Source: a virus. From it: a stretch of DNA of 19,119 nt. The notes under the pieces are model-generated. The model searched no databases, was not told the origin of the DNA, and was given only the letters and a program-made list of their open reading frames with translations. Positions 1,560-15,348 of the stretch are shown in pieces (within the stretch, counting starts at the first letter, position 1; each line of letters opens with the position of its first letter). The DNA lies in UHGV virus genome UHGV-0349885; one strand, 5' to 3'. Position numbers and translations under genes: made by a program.

Positions 1560-2513
1560 TGCAGCCGGTGCGATAGCAACAGGGCTTTTATCTCTCATTA
1601 TTCCTGTTCCACTGACGACAGTTCAGTGGGCCAATAAACATTATTACCTTCCTAAAGAGTCGTCTTATACCCCGGGGCGGTGGGAAACACTGCCGTTTCA
1701 GGTTGGCATCATGAACTGTATGGGCAACGATTTGATTCGCACTGTTAACCTGATTAAATCTGCCCGTGTTGGTTATACAAAGATGTTGCTGGGAGTGGAG
1801 GCTTATTTTATTGAGCATAAATCACGCAACAGCCTTCTTTTTCAGCCCACGGACTCAGCTGCTGAAGATTTTATGAAATCTCATGTTGAGCCAACGATAA
1901 GGGAGGTTCCTGCGTTGCTGGAGCTGGCTCCATGGTTCGGAAGAAAACACCGCGATAATACGCTCACCCTGAAGCGTTTTTCCTCCGGTGTGGGTTTCTG
2001 GTGTCTGGGGGGAGCGGCAGCAAAAAACTACCGTGAAAAATCCGTGGATGTGGTCTGTTATGACGAGCTTTCCTCGTTCGAACCGGATGTTGAAAAAGAG
2101 GGTTCGCCAACCCTGCTGGGGGATAAACGTATTGAGGGCTCTGTATGGCCCAAATCCATTCGCGGCTCGACTCCTAAAATCAAAGGCTCCTGCCAGATCG
2201 AAAAAGCCGCTAACGAGTCGGCACACTTCATGCGTTTTTATGTGCCCTGTCCGCACTGTGGGGAGGAGCAGTATCTGAAATTTGGCGATGAGTCCACGCC
2301 TTTTGGGCTTAAATGGGAGAAGGACAGCCCCGAAAGCGTTTTCTACCTCTGTGAGCATCATGGCTGCGTGATCCATCAGTCTGAACTGGACCAGAGTAAC
2401 GGGCGGTGGATCTGTGAAAACACGGGCATGTGGACCCGTGACGGCCTGACGTTTTTCAGCGCTGCGGGTAATGAAATTCCGCCGCCGCGCTCCATCACTT
2501 TCCATATCTGGAC
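1531..2513 (+). CDS. A: Terminase large subunit (lambda gpA-like), N-terminal 327 codons, interrupted by insertion; in the integrated state the frame reads on into element DNA to a stop at 2757
   Basis: ATG at 1531 overlapping the Nu1 end; strong similarity to lambda gpA ([20 protein letters not shown], Walker-A-like [41 protein letters not shown]); similarity stops at HIWT (about 2513) where the integrase-proximal element sequence begins. Confidence 0.85.
2503..2513 (+). repeat. attL core: left copy of 11-bp direct repeat CATATCTGGAC
   Basis: Identical 11-mer at 14392-14402; both copies encode H-I-W-T of the terminase at the points where terminase homology breaks and resumes. Confidence 0.75.
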
Positions 2514-5073: not shown

Positions 5074-5392
5074 CTTCAACACAAATTGCGCGTTATCCCC
5101 AACGCATGAGCATCGCCAACAATGCCATATTTGCGGCTGGTGGGCAAAGCCTGAGCGATCCTGTGATTACAGGAACTACGGCATTGTCTCGGTTAGGTAG
5201 TGCTCAACTTTTTTTCAACTCTACATCGCAAGCACGCCGTAATAAATCGCCCTTATCGTTTGAGCAAAGACTATTTTTCTCAAAGCATGATATTAAGAGA
5301 AAGATTGTGATAATTAAAGCAACCATCATTGGTACATGTTTTTTTAATTTTAACATCTTTTACTCCTATGATTATCGCCATCGTTCTTCATG

Positions 5393-5590
5393 TTATGACG
5401 TGATTAATGATTTCTCGGATTCACTGGCCTTGCGCCGCTGGCGATATTCAACTTCTCGTTTTAATGCCGCAGTAACAAATTGCCCCGTACTTTCGCCAGG
5501 CATTTTTACCGCCTCAACATTGTTCATAACTTCATGCGGAACCCTTGCCGCAACGGTTTGTGATTTTGCGTTTACTGCTTTTGTCGCCAT
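5393..5590 (-). CDS. Small putative DNA-binding regulator (candidate repressor of the element; possibly ribbon-helix-helix-like)
   Basis: 65 aa, ATG at 5590 with GAGGGG SD; divergently oriented from the operator/promoter cluster at 5641-5692. Fold assignment is by eye only. Confidence 0.5.
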   Translation of the reverse strand: MATKAVNAKSQTVAARVPHEVMNNVEAVKMPGESTGQFVTAALKREVEYRQRRKASESEKSLITS

Positions 5591-5640
5591 GTGGTGTACC
5601 CCTCATAAAAAACAAATGCAGTATGCAGGAAAAAAAATAA

Positions 5641-5692
5641 GTGTTCAACACTTGACGTGTTTAACACCTGGGTTTAAATTGGTGTTCAACAC
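5641..5692. promoter_or_regulatory. Divergent promoter/operator region: three palindromic operators GTGTTCAACAC (5641-5651), GTGTTTAACAC (5657-5667), GTGTTCAACAC (5682-5692) overlapping a rightward sigma70-like promoter (-35 TTGACG 5652-5657, 17-bp spacer, -10 TAAATT 5675-5680)
   Basis: Three copies of an 11-bp perfect palindrome GTGTT-N-AACAC seen directly; they sit between the minus-strand regulator gene and the plus-strand early operon. Confidence 0.6.
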
Positions 5693-5789
5693 CTTGTTGG
5701 CGCAAGGTGCAGAAACGACGAAACCCGGCAGTGCGCTAACACTAACCGGGCTTCTAACCACCAACGATAGCGAAAGTATCGAGGCAGCT

Positions 5790-5993
5790 ATGAGAAATCA
5801 TACCACACACCCGCAAGGGCGGGACTCGCACGACCTGAATAAATACATCTGGCGTTTTATCGCCCTGAGCACGGCACAACCGCGCGTGATTACCATCGAG
5901 GCCACCAGCGAACAGGAAGCGCGTCAGCAATCTCCGGCTGGCTGCGTGATGGTATTCGCTGCCCGTATTCGCCAGGGGTCACATCATGCGTAA
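5790..5993 (+). CDS. Small early protein, Icd-like (P4 host cell-division inhibitor family) by motif
   Basis: ATG 5790 with GAGG SD 5 nt upstream; 67 aa; motif YIWRFIALS...RVITIEATSEQEARQQ...VFAARIRQG recalled as characteristic of Icd-like proteins of P4-type elements. Family assignment from memory only. Confidence 0.5.
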   Translation: MRNHTTHPQGRDSHDLNKYIWRFIALSTAQPRVITIEATSEQEARQQSPAGCVMVFAARIRQGSHHA

Positions 5994-6447
5994 AAACCGC
6001 TTGCAAAAAATTATCACGGGGCTGTATGCTTCCCCCGTCGCCCACATGGCGACCGGGTTTGACAGCCTGAATACATCTGGCGGACAGCCGCCCACATCCG
6101 ATAAGCGGTTTTTTTGTGTCCGTAAACCTACCCATACCCGCATTATGGCGGGGCGTAACGGGGGAGCCTTTGTGCTCGCTGGTTTCCAGATGACCAGTCT
6201 GTCAACCCTGTTACGTCTCGCCACCATGTTTGACAGCGTAGTAGCGAGACTCCTTAAAATTCATCTGGGAGCCTTTCACATGGCTGTATCCGCACGCCCT
6301 TATTTTGTCTGGCGCTTTATGCAGTGCCTGACAGACAGCATTGCAATATTCACCGTTACCGCTGCCACTGAGCGCGAAGCACGTGCACAGCTGCCGCACG
6401 CACATCTGATTTTTGTCGCCCGTATTCGTCAGGGGGTAGGCTTATGA
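5986..6447 (+). CDS. Icd/Ash-like paralog (153 aa) carrying the same C-terminal motif
   Basis: Start overlaps the previous stop; C-terminus YFVWRFMQCLTDSIAIFTVTAATEREARAQLPHAHLIFVARIRQG is a clear paralog of the 5790-5993 product. Confidence 0.5.
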   Translation: MRKNRLQKIITGLYASPVAHMATGFDSLNTSGGQPPTSDKRFFCVRKPTHTRIMAGRNGGAFVLAGFQMTSLSTLLRLATMFDSVVARLLKIHLGAFHMAVSARPYFVWRFMQCLTDSIAIFTVTAATEREARAQLPHAHLIFVARIRQGVGL

Positions 6448-6677
6448 GTCAGGAAATCACACTACAACAGGCAGCAGAACGCGCCCACCAAATCGAAGTT
6501 ATTTGCGCACTGGCAGAGGATTACCCTGGCATGATGACCGACAGCGAATCAGGGGCAATCATCGGCTTACTTAAACGCCTTAGCGGTGAGGTCTGCGTAT
6601 TCCTGAGCGATGAACAGGAAAGAAGAACGCTTATTTCTAACGAAAAAAAATGCGGAGGGGTACACCATGTGCAATAA
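6444..6677 (+). CDS. Hypothetical small protein (77 aa), translationally coupled in early operon
   Basis: ATG overlaps the preceding stop (ATGA); GGGGG SD upstream; no recognisable family. Confidence 0.5.
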   Translation: MSQEITLQQAAERAHQIEVICALAEDYPGMMTDSESGAIIGLLKRLSGEVCVFLSDEQERRTLISNEKKCGGVHHVQ

Positions 6678-6888
6678 CATCCGTCCGGACGCAGCAGCCG
6701 CCGCGCTCACTACGCTGATGCACGCGCTTATCGATATTGAATGCACTGCAGAGCTTGCGCAGGGAGAAGAACAGAAAGACCGGACACAGTTCGCCCTGGA
6801 ATGTATCCGATACATCGCAACGCGGTCGCTGAATGAAGCTAAAAATATTCTTGTTGCTGATTGTGAAAATGGGGGGGGTTATGCGTGA
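6667..6888 (+). CDS. Hypothetical small protein (73 aa from ATG 6667; ORF track offers an upstream start at 6610)
   Basis: Strong SD GGAGGGG 7 nt upstream of ATG 6667; stop overlaps the next start in the 8-mer ATGCGTGA. Confidence 0.45.
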   Translation: MCNNIRPDAAAAALTTLMHALIDIECTAELAQGEEQKDRTQFALECIRYIATRSLNEAKNILVADCENGGGYA

Positions 6889-7114
6889 TGATCGTTTTAA
6901 TTCCCTGAAACAGGAATTTTCCGGCGTTCCTGATGATGCGGCTGATGCGCTTTCGTCAATGCCAGAACTTATTAGAGCGGCTTTTTTCTTACTTTCCACG
7001 AGAGAATATAAATCAACGGGGCTTGATGTACTGAATATCGCCGCCGATTATGCGGAATATGTGGCAGAGGCGCGTTATAGAAGAAAATTTCCTGAGGATG
7101 TAAGCCATGCGTGA
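6881..7114 (+). CDS. Hypothetical small protein (77 aa, MRDDRFNSLKQEF...)
   Basis: ATG 6881 inside the overlap 8-mer ATGCGTGA; acidic and helical; no recognisable family. Confidence 0.45.
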   Translation: MRDDRFNSLKQEFSGVPDDAADALSSMPELIRAAFFLLSTREYKSTGLDVLNIAADYAEYVAEARYRRKFPEDVSHA

Positions 7115-13445: not shown

Positions 13446-13597
13446 GCAATACAACAACCACGTATTTTTTTAAAACTATTTGATTCAATTAGCATTTTTT
13501 TATTTTTAGCATCAAAAAAACACTATCAGGTTGTTGTATTGCTCTTTATTTTTACTTAGTTATCAAATGGATATGACAAACAATTAAACAACAACCT
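13446..13597. repeat. Perfect 14-bp inverted repeat GCAATACAACAACC (13446-13459) / GGTTGTTGTATTGC (13529-13542) around a 69-bp AT-rich spacer, plus a third ACAACAACC copy (13589-13597); candidate cosB R-elements of cos-B
   Basis: Repeats read directly from the sequence; they occupy the cosB side of the inverted cos-B in an R3 / AT-rich / R2 / R1-like layout. Confidence 0.5.
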
Positions 13598-14041: not shown

Positions 14042-14391
14042 AAAAAAAGACGGTATTTAAATAGGGTGGGTGTTTAATACCCTAGGGGGATCGGAATCCC
14101 TACACCCCATTGCTTATGAGACCGCATTCCCCGTCAAATTTTTACACCCGCGAAATTAAAAAAATGCGTCACGCTGGTGGGTGTGATGCTGATATGGGGA
14201 TTTCCATAACCGAGATTAAGCAAAGAGCAAACTTGCCCCCTGTAGCCAAACATAGTAACCATCTAAGCCCCTTTTTTATCTTAATTTAGCTGATTTTTCC
14301 GTGTTTATACGGACTAGAATTTGTACCAAACGCAAAAGCGATGTCTTCTTTATTCCTTTAAATTCAATTTATTATCTTGCTTGTTTGCTTT

Positions 14392-14402
14392 CATATCTGG
14401 AC
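14392..14402 (+). repeat. attR core: right copy of 11-bp direct repeat CATATCTGGAC
   Basis: Identical to 2503-2513; terminase homology resumes exactly here (HIWTAYSPFTTWVQIV). Confidence 0.75.
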
Positions 14403-15348
14403 GGCGTACAGTCCGTTCACCACCTGGGTACAGATTGTCTATGACTGGCTGGATGCACTGAAAGATCCCAACGGCCTGAAAACCTTTGTGAACACCACGC
14501 TGGGCGAGACCTGGGAAGAGGCTGTGGGCGAAAAAATCGATCACCAGGTACTGATGGATAAGGTTGTGCGTTACACGGCGGCGGTGCCTGCCCGGGTGGT
14601 TTATCTGACGGCGGGCATTGACTCGCAGCGAAACCGTTTTGAGATGTATGTCTGGGGATGGGCTCCGGGAGAGGAAGCCTTTCTGGTGGATAAAATCATC
14701 ATTATGGGGCGTCCCGATGAGGAAGAGACGCTGTTACGTGTGGATGCGGCGATCAACAAAAAATACCGCCATGCAGACGGAACCGAAATGACTATTTCCC
14801 GTGTCTGCTGGGACATCGGGGGGATCGATGGCGAAATCGTTTATCAGAGGTCAAAAAAACACGGTGTTTTCCGGGTGCTGCCGGTAAAAGGCGCATCTGT
14901 CTATGGCAAGCCGGTGATCACCATGCCAAAAACCCGCAATCAGCGGGGCGTGTATCTGTGTGAAGTGGGGACGGACACCGCAAAAGAAATTCTCTATGCC
15001 CGTATGAAAGCCGATCCCACGCCTGTGGATGAAGCCACGTCGTATGCCATCCGTTTTCCTGATGATCCGGAGATTTTTTCGCAGACAGAGGCGCAGCAAC
15101 TGGTCGCGGAAGAGCTTGTGGAGAAGTGGGAAAAAGGAAAGATGCGTCTGCTGTGGGATAACAAAAAGCGGCGTAACGAAGCGCTGGACTGCCTGGTGTA
15201 TGCCTACGCGGCATTACGTGTGTCCGTGCAACGCTGGCAGCTTGATCTGGCTGTACTGGCAAAATCCCGGGAAGAAGAGACGACCCGGCCAACCCTGAAA
15301 GAACTGGCAGCGAAGCTGTCCGGAGGAGTGAATGGTTACAGTCGCTGA
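14392..15348 (+). CDS. A: Terminase large subunit (lambda gpA-like), C-terminal 315 codons downstream of the insertion; the ORF track extends it to an in-frame TTG at 14377 inside element DNA
   Basis: Colinear with lambda gpA C-terminal half (FHIWTAYSPFTTWVQIV, FVNTTLGETWE, YLTAGIDSQ, RVCWDIGGID, SKKHGVFRVLPVKGASVYGKP, EVGTDTAKE, KRRNEALDCLVYAYAALR); the N part plus this part total 642 codons, against lambda gpA 641 aa. Confidence 0.85.
   Translation, partial: HIWTAYSPFTTWVQIVYDWLDALKDPNGLKTFVNTTLGETWEEAVGEKIDHQVLMDKVVRYTAAVPARVVYLTAGIDSQRNRFEMYVWGWAPGEEAFLVDKIIIMGRPDEEETLLRVDAAINKKYRHADGTEMTISRVCWDIGGIDGEIVYQRSKKHGVFRVLPVKGASVYGKPVITMPKTRNQRGVYLCEVGTDTAKEILYARMKADPTPVDEATSYAIRFPDDPEIFSQTEAQQLVAEELVEKWEKGKMRLLWDNKKRRNEALDCLVYAYAALRVSVQRWQLDLAVLAKSREEETTRPTLKELAAKLSGGVNGYSR

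What the first reader, a model, noticed from the sequence alone, without database searches (positions are those of the whole stretch)
5393..5993. Compact genetic switch: three identical palindromic operators between a small divergent regulator gene and the early operon
GTGTT-N-AACAC occurs three times within 52 bp (5641-5692), overlapping a near-consensus rightward promoter (-35, spacer and +1 positions) and a plausible leftward promoter for the 65-aa regulator gene. This looks like the element's master repressor-operator module controlling the Icd-like genes, small ORFs and primase.
Basis: partly seen in the sequence, partly recalled or inferred. Interest (0 to 1): 0.55.

Follow-up and report, generated by a model that had tools for sequence, protein, structure and literature searches.

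The report
Satellite repressor-operator switch (RHH, three operators)
A 65-residue ribbon-helix-helix protein of the uncharacterised YlcI/YnfO family probably binds three 11-bp palindromes over the promoter of a phage satellite's replication operon, which would make it the repressor not yet identified for Gram-negative phage-inducible islands.

Summary
GTGTT-N-AACAC occurs exactly three times (5641-51, 5657-67, 5682-92) and nowhere else in 19 kb. The sites bracket a rightward promoter (TTGACG-17-TAAATT), and the first covers the -35 of a weaker leftward promoter.

The 65-aa gene (5393-5590, minus strand) is a YlcI/YnfO-family protein, listed as function unknown in PHROGs. Its model has a ribbon-helix-helix (RHH) fold.

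The main evidence is comparative. In about 35 related satellites the promoter scaffold stays fixed. The repeated sites change in step with residues 11-15 of the protein's predicted DNA-reading strand, giving about 12 specificity classes. Three predictions made from the protein sequence alone were met. Operator type follows the RHH N-terminal half, not AlpA and not the downstream genes. A ~200-bp swap between near-identical elements carries the RHH N-terminal half, both promoters and the operators together.

The element is a helper-embedded PICI inside a lambdoid terminase gene. The prototype EcCICFT073 carries the same module.

"Master" repressor is not shown. In EcCICFT073 AlpA overexpression alone induces replication, and here a C4 antisense-RNA cassette sits downstream.

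Verdict: a new member of a known kind (P22 Mnt/Arc-like switch). No binding or expression data exist.

The parts
5393..5590 (-). Gene for the 65-aa YlcI/YnfO-family protein, predicted ribbon-helix-helix repressor. Residues about 10-17 form the predicted DNA-reading strand, followed by helix 19-28, the invariant GES turn (32-34) and helix 35-63.
5641..5651 (.). Operator 1, GTGTTCAACAC. It covers the -35 of the leftward promoter and abuts the -35 of the rightward promoter. This site is an extra one, at offset 53, seen with all three sites intact in the window, L002, L006 and L047 (L003 has a degenerate copy).
5652..5680 (+). Rightward promoter P_R: TTGACG (5652-5657), 17-nt spacer, TAAATT (5675-5680). 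Expected +1 about 5687.
   Evidence: TTGA lies at offset 63-67 from the regulator's start codon in 33 of the 35 loci as listed; the other two, L042 and L043, were mis-anchored by the script and have TTGAC at about offset 64 by eye.
5657..5667 (.). Operator 2, GTGTTTAACAC, in the spacer of P_R. This is the canonical site present in nearly all relatives.
5682..5692 (.). Operator 3, GTGTTCAACAC, over the +1 of P_R. This is the canonical site present in nearly all relatives.
5620..5648 (-). Candidate leftward promoter P_L: -35 TTGAAC (5648-5643), 17-nt spacer, -10 CATACT (5625-5620). It sits back to back with P_R, with 3 bp between the two -35 hexamers.
   Evidence: Read from the sequence. Not called by the scan. 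The -10 position matches the ACAGTAT(A) seen in most relatives.
5692..5789 (+). Structured 5' leader of the rightward operon: hairpin A 5692-5707, long hairpin B 5720-5754, conserved TCTAACCAC 5753-5761, hairpin C 5765-5781, and SD GAGG 5781-5784.
   Evidence: Alignment of 20 loci. RNAalifold: 17 pairs, 11 with compensatory changes.
5717..5789 (-). Candidate cis-antisense RNA (SymR-like) covering the SD and leader of the first icd-like gene. An extended -10-like TGGTATGAT lies at 5805-5797 on the minus strand. Hairpin B followed by a U-rich tail would be its terminator.
   Evidence: Rfam SymR hits below threshold at the same place in five sequences: window 29.8 bits; L011 36.4, L013 32.3, L009 28.5, L006 28.0. 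The gathering score is 61, so this is only a lead.
5790..5993 (+). First icd-like gene (67 aa), the first gene of the operon under P_R. The RefSeq CDS of 134 aa starting at 5589 is an over-extension across the switch.
   Evidence: NF033153, E 1.4e-19. The CFT073 orthologue is annotated at 66 aa from the equivalent ATG.
6024..6228 (+). Second control layer: c4-a1b1 target 6024-6073, isrK-like element with a terminator 6037-6115, and C4 antisense RNA 6141-6228. All lie inside the over-called 153-aa 'icd-like' ORF. The real second icd-like domain is about 6304-6447.
   Evidence: Rfam C4 72.6 bits (gathering 45), a1b1 46.8 (gathering 46.7), isrK 35.2 (below its gathering score of 50). NF033153 matches residues 107-149 of the ORF.
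5204..5356 (-). Small ORF (50 aa, with a lipobox-like LISC) 36 nt downstream of the regulator gene. It is possibly co-transcribed cargo and is not conserved in relatives.
   Evidence: The lipoprotein reading is inference from the sequence.
5180..5213 (+). Terminator-like hairpin with a T-run at the end of the int-alpA-Bro block, upstream of the switch.

Best explanation
The 65-aa ORF encodes a ribbon-helix-helix repressor of the YlcI/YnfO family. It acts as the immunity-type repressor of a helper-embedded Gram-negative PICI.

Proposed mechanism. Dimers read each 11-bp palindrome with their N-terminal beta-ribbon and N-terminal arm. Occupying operator 2 (promoter spacer) and operator 3 (+1) keeps RNA polymerase off P_R. 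That silences the leader, icd-like, C4, icd-like, small-ORF, DUF4222 and primase operon while the satellite is quiescent. Operator 1 lies on the -35 of the regulator's own promoter and gives negative autoregulation. In most relatives the equivalent site lies on the -10/+1 of that promoter.

Specificity sits in residues about 11-15 and the N-terminal arm. These have diversified together with the operators into at least a dozen immunity types, and they are exchanged as a ~200-bp cassette.

What is shown: the sites, their position relative to promoter elements, the fold, the covariation and the cassette swap.

What is inferred: binding, the sign of regulation, and the stoichiometry of one dimer per palindrome.

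Induction route (speculative). Either AlpA-driven transcription or Q-antiterminated helper late transcription enters from the left. It would run antisense through the repressor gene and on into the operon. Alternatively, a helper or satellite antirepressor removes the protein.

For: Architecture. In most of the related loci examined, TTGA(C) lies at offset about 64 from the regulator's start. One site follows directly after it and one follows the -10, and most loci also have a site on the regulator's own promoter.

Covariation.
- QT(V/L/I)AA pairs with GTGTTNAACAC.
- KKLEA pairs with GTGGCTGACAC.
- Q(S/A)LK(S/A) pairs with GTGGRCCACAC.
- K(R/K)(F/I)D(V/A) pairs with GTGTCNGACAC.
- QK(L/V)Q(A/T) pairs with GTGGAGTCCAC.
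- QKMSA pairs with CTGGGTGCCAG.
- QSVTA pairs with GTGTAAGACAC.
- QALRA pairs with GTGTAGACCAC.
Mean operator distance is 1.80 when residues 12 and 14 agree and 4.23 when they differ; 0 of 5000 permutations reach that gap.

Predictions made from the protein alone were met for P0041, P0047 and P0006.

Natural controls.
- L042 and L046 share 97% identical AlpA but have different operators.
- L042 and L043 share only 26% identical AlpA but have an identical RHH and identical operators.
- L038 and CFT073 share 95% identical AlpA but have different operators.
- L040 has the GTGTCCGACAC cassette in front of a KilA-N operon instead of icd.

Mosaic. Window against L042 is 93% identical at 5427-5456, 47-80% over 5457-5702 (lowest, 47-70%, over 5487-5673), and 90-100% from 5703 onward.

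No conserved partner gene follows the regulator.
Against: There are no expression or binding data of any kind.

The gene and the operators lie within 100 bp of each other and are co-inherited. The permutation test therefore overstates independence.

L027 and L031 share strand residues QKIQA yet have different sites. Their N-terminal arms differ, so the strand alone does not set specificity.

P_L is weak and was not called by the scan.

In EcCICFT073, which has the same module, AlpA overexpression alone gives runaway replication (PMC6092414). The repressor is therefore not dominant.
Confidence: 0.75

Rival explanations
1. The protein binds the palindromes but acts as a transient, Arc- or Cro-like modulator or a pure autoregulator. 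It would not be the maintenance repressor of the replication operon. Quiescence would then be set by the lack of AlpA and by the C4 RNA.
For: AlpA overexpression alone induces EcCICFT073, which carries the same module. A C4/a1b1/terminator cassette lies downstream here. One site always sits on the regulator's own promoter.
Against: The gene is divergent from the operon it would modulate, so it is Mnt-like rather than Arc-like. Two of the three canonical sites sit on the spacer and +1 of P_R in nearly every locus. The 11 other loci scanned have no C4, so C4 cannot be the general silencer.
Confidence: 0.15
2. The palindromes are bound by another factor, such as AlpA, the Bro-N protein, a product of the rightward operon, or a helper or host protein. 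The small ORF would then be unrelated to them.
For: No binding data exist. AlpA is the experimentally established regulator of these islands (PMC6092414).
Against: Operator type does not follow AlpA: 97% and 95% identical AlpAs go with different operators, and 26% identical AlpAs go with the same operators. It does not follow the downstream operon either: icd-like against KilA-N with the same operator, and near-identical icd-like genes with different operators. It does not follow host genus: Pectobacterium and Xenorhabdus each carry several types. Only the N-terminal half of the RHH tracks it.
Confidence: 0.05
3. The protein is the RHH antitoxin of a type II toxin-antitoxin pair and autoregulates its own operon.
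For: The best structural matches include the antitoxins CopA_SO, Rv0298, TacA, ParD and MazE7. A small ORF follows the gene in the window.
Against: No conserved downstream partner exists in about 30 loci, and many have no ORF there at all. The 50-aa ORF in the window matches no PHROG family. The sites are centred on the divergent promoter.
Confidence: 0.03
4. The repeat is a chance or structural feature with no regulatory role.
For: None beyond the absence of experiments.
Against: About 0.02 exact hits are expected and three are seen within 52 bp. The same three-site layout recurs with different sequences in about 35 loci.
Confidence: 0.01

Closest known systems
Phage P22 immI region: Mnt and Arc RHH repressors with O_mnt/O_arc on the divergent P_ant/P_mnt promoters (from established knowledge)
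   Same: A small RHH repressor gene is transcribed divergently from the operon it silences. The promoters are back to back. Symmetric operators sit in the spacer and at the +1 of the target promoter. The repressor regulates itself. The N-terminal strand and arm set specificity.
   Different: No detectable sequence similarity to Arc or Mnt. A single protein covers both positions that Arc and Mnt occupy separately. The target operon carries icd-like genes and a primase, not an antirepressor. The element is a satellite, not a phage.
Phage P1/P7 immI (C1-controlled promoter, c4 antisense RNA, icd, ant) and the P4 CI RNA/seqA system
   Same: C4 RNA, an a1/b1 target and icd-like genes lie in the same transcription unit downstream of a repressor-controlled promoter.
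   Different: The promoter's repressor is an RHH encoded next door, not C1. No ant gene was recognised downstream. The C4 cassette is absent from the 11 related loci scanned, so it is an add-on to the switch.
EcCICFT073 and other Gram-negative PICIs, and the helper-embedded PICIs of Mageeney et al. 2023 (PMC6092414, PMC10111431)
   Same: Same element type: int, alpA, Bro zone, primase/SSB, capsid and decoration genes. The decoration protein accession is the same as in CFT073. The element is integrated in, and co-oriented with, helper terminase gene A; that paper lists the site as A:Terminase_1:245. EcCICFT073 has the same YlcI/icd-like switch, with operators GTGGGCCACAC.
   Different: [quoted passage not shown] The CFT073 gene carries a late-added locus tag (C_RS30120).
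SaPI Stl / Gram-positive PICI Rpr master repressors
   Same: A divergent repressor gene sits next to the replication operon of a phage satellite.
   Different: Stl and Rpr are larger helix-turn-helix proteins relieved by helper-phage antirepressors (PMC6092414; the fold is from my own knowledge). No homology was found and no evidence of such relief exists here.
YlcI (DLP12) and YnfO (Qin) of E. coli K-12
   Same: Same NCBIfam and PHROG family, with the same strand-helix-helix sequence pattern.
   Different: The K-12 ylcI gene sits upstream of nohD, beside what I recognise from memory as the lambdoid cos region. I saw no repeated palindromes or divergent operon of this kind there. Its function there remains unknown.

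Membership tests
Ribbon-helix-helix (CopG/Arc/MetJ) superfamily | N-terminal strand followed by two helices in about 45 residues | tested here: met
Ribbon-helix-helix (CopG/Arc/MetJ) superfamily | Conserved G-x-S/T/N turn between the helices | tested here: met
   G32, E33 and S34 are invariant in 41 sequences.
Ribbon-helix-helix (CopG/Arc/MetJ) superfamily | Dimer forming a two-stranded antiparallel ribbon that enters the major groove | not testable with these tools
   Only a monomer could be modelled. The strand is extended but unpaired in the model.
Ribbon-helix-helix (CopG/Arc/MetJ) superfamily | Significant sequence match to an RHH family profile | tested here: not met
   No RHH Pfam family at E up to 0.1. 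Only weak hints among homologues: CB_ParB_C at 0.15 and PSK_trans_fac at 0.03. No PDB match by sequence or profile.
NCBIfam NF041551 YlcI/YnfO | Score above the curated cutoff | tested here: met
   59.2 bits against a cutoff of 30. Also phrog_949, E 1.7e-21.
Repressor-operator genetic switch | Repeated cognate sites overlapping core promoter elements | tested here: met
Repressor-operator genetic switch | Protein specificity determinants and operators change together | tested here: met
   About 12 classes, three predictions met, one cassette swap, and the AlpA and operon controls.
Repressor-operator genetic switch | Protein binds the sites and lowers transcription | not testable with these tools
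   Needs EMSA or footprinting and reporter assays.
Gram-negative PICI / helper-embedded PICI | int, alpA and P4-type primase co-oriented; 10-20 kb; flanked by an att repeat; inside and co-oriented with a helper late gene | tested here: met
   AlpA (E 5e-4, just below Pfam's cutoff), Bro-N, D5_N/primase and DUF4222. RefSeq context shows split terminase A fragments on both sides. An 11-bp repeat CATATCTGGAC lies at 2503-2513 and 14392-14402, giving an element of about 11.9 kb.
P1 immI-type c4-icd-ant operon | C4 RNA with a1/b1 target and an icd gene | tested here: met
   C4 72.6 bits (gathering 45), a1b1 46.8 (gathering 46.7). NF033153 hits two ORFs.
P1 immI-type c4-icd-ant operon | Antirepressor (ant) gene coupled downstream of icd | tested here: not met
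   The small ORFs from 6444 to 7114 scanned downstream have no Pfam or NCBIfam match to Ant. The next recognisable genes are DUF4222 and the primase.
Type II toxin-antitoxin (RHH antitoxin) | Conserved co-transcribed toxin gene | tested here: not met
   Downstream ORFs are absent or unrelated across about 30 loci.
SymR/SymE-type cis-antisense control (candidate, leader only) | Rfam SymR score at or above the gathering threshold | tested here: not met
   28-36 bits against 61, though the hits are full length and at the same place in five sequences.

The most novel reading that the evidence does not exclude
The YlcI/YnfO-type RHH is the missing maintenance repressor of Gram-negative PICIs, including the prototype EcCICFT073. 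It comes in a dozen or more exchangeable immunity types. It forms the first of three stacked layers on the replication operon: a protein repressor at the promoter, a SymR-like cis-antisense RNA over the first ribosome-binding site, and in E. coli elements a C4 trans-antisense RNA with a terminator. In helper-embedded copies the switch is flipped without an antirepressor. Antiterminated helper late transcription reads in from the interrupted terminase gene and runs antisense through the repressor gene.
Probability: 0.2. Interest if true: 0.7.

Novelty: new member of a known kind. Interest (0 to 1): 0.55.

Why it matters
[quoted passage not shown] This analysis gives a concrete candidate repressor with mapped operators. 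That candidate is also present in the model island EcCICFT073, so the question can be tested directly with existing strains.

It also assigns a probable function, sequence-specific RHH repressor, to a family listed as 'unknown function' (YlcI/YnfO, phrog_949).

The residue-to-base covariation table is a natural data set for RHH recognition rules and a source of orthogonal small repressor-operator pairs.

This immunity type alone occurs in 487 of 5426 complete E. coli genomes. A second type, P0041, is listed in 5351 blocks of the assembly collection.

Immunity types may determine which satellites can coexist or cross-repress in one cell.

Tried and rejected
Searches that found nothing useful:
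- Pfam on the protein and on 41 homologues, PDB phmmer and a PDB profile search gave no significant RHH hit.
- tblastn against 50,697 phage records gave no match, so the module appears to be satellite-borne rather than phage-borne.
- Literature searches for YlcI, YnfO and DUF3950 returned only gene lists. One 2026 paper lists it as a 'prophage-associated protein'.

Leads that did not carry over:
- The K-12 ylcI context is different, and I saw no comparable operators. The switch reading should therefore not be transferred to lambdoid YlcI/YnfO without further work.
- The HE-PICI arm motif TGTATTGC (PMC10111431) has two exact hits at 13446 and 13535. These are not at the published distances from the att core, and two hits are within chance. 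I did not pursue it.

Rivals rejected:
- The toxin-antitoxin reading.
- AlpA, or a product of the rightward operon, as the binder.

Other points:
- Four loci (L004, L005, L025, L026) have a truncated or rearranged intergenic region and were left out of the statistics.
- The anchoring script mis-set the operator for L042 and L043. This only weakens the test.

Full report
**Observation**

The pattern GTGTTNAACAC is present exactly three times, at 5641-5651, 5657-5667 and 5682-5692. Allowing one mismatch, it occurs only once more in the 19-kb window. About 0.02 exact hits would be expected by chance. The arms are identical; the central base is C, T, C.

A sigma-70-like promoter points rightward: TTGACG (5652-5657), 17 nt, TAAATT (5675-5680).
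- Site 1 ends one base before its -35.
- Site 2 fills its spacer.
- Site 3 covers the expected start, about 5687.

On the other strand I read a weaker promoter. Its -35 TTGAAC (5648-5643) lies inside site 1, followed by 17 nt and a -10 CATACT (5625-5620). The scan did not call it. It would serve the 65-aa ORF at 5393-5590 (minus strand), which has a good Shine-Dalgarno sequence.

**What the surroundings are**

RefSeq annotation of a 99.9% identical E. coli chromosome and domain searches show the following order: integrase, AlpA-like protein, Bro-N protein, then the switch. After the switch come two icd-like genes, small ORFs, DUF4222, a P4-type primase, SSB, a major capsid protein and a decoration protein.

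The whole element is about 11.9 kb. It is bounded by an 11-bp repeat, CATATCTGGAC, at 2503-2513 and 14392-14402. It sits inside, and is co-oriented with, the large terminase gene of a lambdoid prophage.

This is a helper-embedded PICI of the kind described by Mageeney et al. 2023 (PMC10111431). That paper lists a site A:Terminase_1:245.

**The regulator**

The 65-aa protein matches NCBIfam YlcI/YnfO (59.2 bits, cutoff 30). It also matches phrog_949, whose function is listed as unknown. It has no significant Pfam or PDB sequence match.

An AlphaFold2 model built on 41 homologues has pLDDT 83.9. It shows an extended N-terminus, helix 19-28, a turn with invariant G32-E33-S34, and helix 35-63.

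- Rv0298 and TacA2.
- AmrZ bound to DNA, and TacA3 bound to DNA.
- The omega repressor.
- NikR and ParD.

Foldseek found nothing. The fold assignment is therefore structural only and of moderate strength.

**Comparative test**

I collected 35 loci from one genome per species. I added 10 more loci by exact protein look-up and the prototype island EcCICFT073.

With the regulator's start codon as origin, TTGA(C) lies at about offset 64 in nearly all loci. One 11-bp site follows it directly, one follows the -10, and usually one lies at offset about 24 on the regulator's own -10/+1.

The sites within a locus are near-identical to each other, but they differ between loci. They change together with residues 11-15 of the protein:

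| Residues 11-15 | Operator |
|---|---|
| QT(V/L/I)AA | GTGTTNAACAC |
| KKLEA | GTGGCTGACAC |
| Q(S/A)LK(S/A) | GTGGRCCACAC |
| K(R/K)(F/I)D(V/A) | GTGTCNGACAC |
| QK(L/V)Q(A/T) | GTGGAGTCCAC |
| QKMSA | CTGGGTGCCAG |
| QSVTA | GTGTAAGACAC |
| QALRA | GTGTAGACCAC |

R16 is invariant. The outer bases are almost always GTG...CAC, and three of the four proteins with an MTR- or MSD-type N-terminal arm have CTG...CAG instead.

From my recollection of the Arc-operator structure, Arc's R-W-P-x-E-V segment lines up with R16-V17-P18-H19-E20-V21 here. That would place residues 12, 14 and 16 on the DNA-facing side of the strand. This alignment is from memory, not a tool result.

Operator distance averages 1.80 when residues 12 and 14 agree and 4.23 when they differ. 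None of 5000 permutations reach that gap. Because gene and sites are adjacent and co-inherited, this figure overstates independence.

**Stronger controls**

1. Three predictions made from the protein alone were met:
   - P0041, a very common E. coli type, has GTGGCTGACAC.
   - P0047 has GTGTCCGACAC.
   - Salmonella P0006 has the window's own three-site layout.
2. Operator type does not follow AlpA:
   - L042 and L046 have 97% identical AlpA and different operators.
   - L042 and L043 have 26% identical AlpA, an identical RHH and identical operators.
   - L038 and CFT073 have 95% identical AlpA and different operators.
3. Operator type does not follow the downstream operon:
   - L040 has the GTGTCCGACAC cassette in front of a KilA-N gene.
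   - The window and L042 have nearly identical leaders and icd-like genes but different operators.
4. Window against L042 is 93% identical at the 3' end of the regulator gene. Identity falls to 47-70% over 5487-5673 and returns to 90-100% from 5703 onward. This is a cassette swap of about 200 bp. It carries exactly the N-terminal half of the protein, both promoters and the operators.
5. No conserved gene follows the regulator, which argues against a toxin-antitoxin pair.

An exception: L027 and L031 share QKIQA but differ in operator. Their N-terminal arms differ.

**Layout in this window compared with relatives**

The window, Edwardsiella L002 and Salmonella L047 have lost the offset-24 site. 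They carry an extra site at offset 53, which is operator 1, on the -35 of the leftward promoter. Kosakonia L006 has all four sites. Either arrangement places one site on the regulator's own promoter.

**Other control layers in and next to the finding**

The roughly 100-nt leader (5692-5789) is conserved in 20 loci as three hairpins. Of 17 predicted pairs, 11 show compensatory changes. The ribosome-binding site lies in or next to the third hairpin.

On the opposite strand, the Rfam SymR model gives full-length hits below threshold at the same place in five sequences (28-36 bits, gathering score 61). An extended -10-like TGGTATGAT lies 7 nt upstream of the hit's start. On that strand the long hairpin is followed by a U-rich tail. 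A cis-antisense RNA over the first ribosome-binding site is therefore possible but unproven.

Just beyond the finding lie a c4-a1b1 target (6024-6073), an isrK-like element ending in a terminator (6037-6115) and a C4 antisense RNA (6141-6228). All sit inside an over-called 153-aa ORF. This resembles the P1 immI and P4 CI arrangements. The cassette is absent from the 11 related loci scanned, so it is an addition to the switch rather than part of its core.

**Relation to what is known**

Fillol-Salom et al. [quoted passage not shown] They report that AlpA is an activator whose overexpression alone induces EcCICFT073 excision and runaway replication (PMC6092414).

EcCICFT073 carries this same module. 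A YlcI/YnfO gene (C_RS30120, a late-added locus tag) is divergent from an icd-like gene, with GTGGGGGACAG, GTGGGCCACAC and GTGGGCCACAC at the canonical positions.

None of the papers found mention the gene's role.

The repressor reading is therefore new for this family and this element type. The AlpA result means the protein cannot be called 'master' without experiments.

The design is classical. The closest functional analogue is the P22 immI region, with Mnt and Arc on P_ant/P_mnt. There is no detectable sequence relationship to those proteins.

**Spread**

This immunity type alone is found at 90% identity or more, over at least 80% of 5393-5700, in 487 of 5426 complete E. coli genomes.

**Verdict**

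It is overstated on 'master', on 'near-consensus' and on the switch being the only control. I rate it a new member of a known kind, of moderate interest.

Noticed in passing
window 2503-2513 and 14392-14402; terminase fragments about 1489-2513 and 14392-15348: The ~11.9-kb satellite is inserted in, and co-oriented with, the large terminase gene of a lambdoid prophage. It is flanked by the 11-bp repeat CATATCTGGAC. This is a helper-embedded PICI at the terminase A site described in PMC10111431.
   Followed up: partly
window 5717-5789 (minus strand); also L006, L009, L011, L013: Rfam SymR gives repeated full-length hits below threshold (28-36 bits, gathering score 61), antisense to the leader and ribosome-binding site of the first icd-like gene. 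An extended -10-like TGGTATGAT lies 7 nt upstream. A cis-antisense RNA is possible.
   Followed up: partly
window 5692-5789 (plus strand): The leader is conserved as three hairpins and an invariant TCTAACCAC in 20 loci. Eleven of 17 pairs show compensatory changes. No Rfam family matches on this strand.
   Followed up: partly
window 6024-6228: A C4 antisense RNA, a c4-a1b1 target and an isrK-like terminator lie inside the ORF annotated as a 153-aa icd-like protein. The real icd-like domain is only the last 45 or so codons. The cassette is absent from the 11 related loci scanned.
   Followed up: partly
window 5589-5993: RefSeq annotates the first icd-like gene as 134 aa starting at 5589, so the CDS runs across the whole switch region. 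The CFT073 orthologue and the SD/ATG at 5781-5792 indicate a 67-aa protein starting at 5790.
   Followed up: yes
L049 8473-8851 (E. coli CFT073, NC_004431.1 1380473-1380851): The prototype island EcCICFT073 has the same YlcI/YnfO gene and a three-site switch of a different immunity type (GTGGGCCACAC). The gene carries a late-added locus tag.
   Followed up: yes
L038 3185-3364: A second, divergent RHH-like small gene (VSTHKNERRGNPPFQFRLDPDLREKMEKA...) lies in the same E. coli satellite. Leader-type hairpin-B-like and TCTAACCA sequences lie on its upstream side.
   Followed up: no
L040 and L041, 1467-2677: The RHH and operator cassette (GTGTCCGACAC type) sits in front of a KilA-N gene, with no structured leader. 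The cassette is therefore portable between different operons.
   Followed up: partly
window 5204-5356 (minus strand): A 50-aa ORF directly downstream of the regulator has a lipobox-like LISC and may be a small lipoprotein carried as cargo. RefSeq annotates a longer 87-aa ORF here in the 99.9% identical genome, so one copy may carry a frameshift.
   Followed up: no
window 14070-14080: A one-mismatch copy of the operator (GTGTTTAATAC) lies near the right end of the satellite. This is within chance expectation.
   Followed up: no
L003, L007, L013, L017, about 2.5-3 kb on the int side of the regulator: The int-alpA RNA motif (RF02996) scores above its gathering threshold in four related loci but not in the window.
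   Followed up: no
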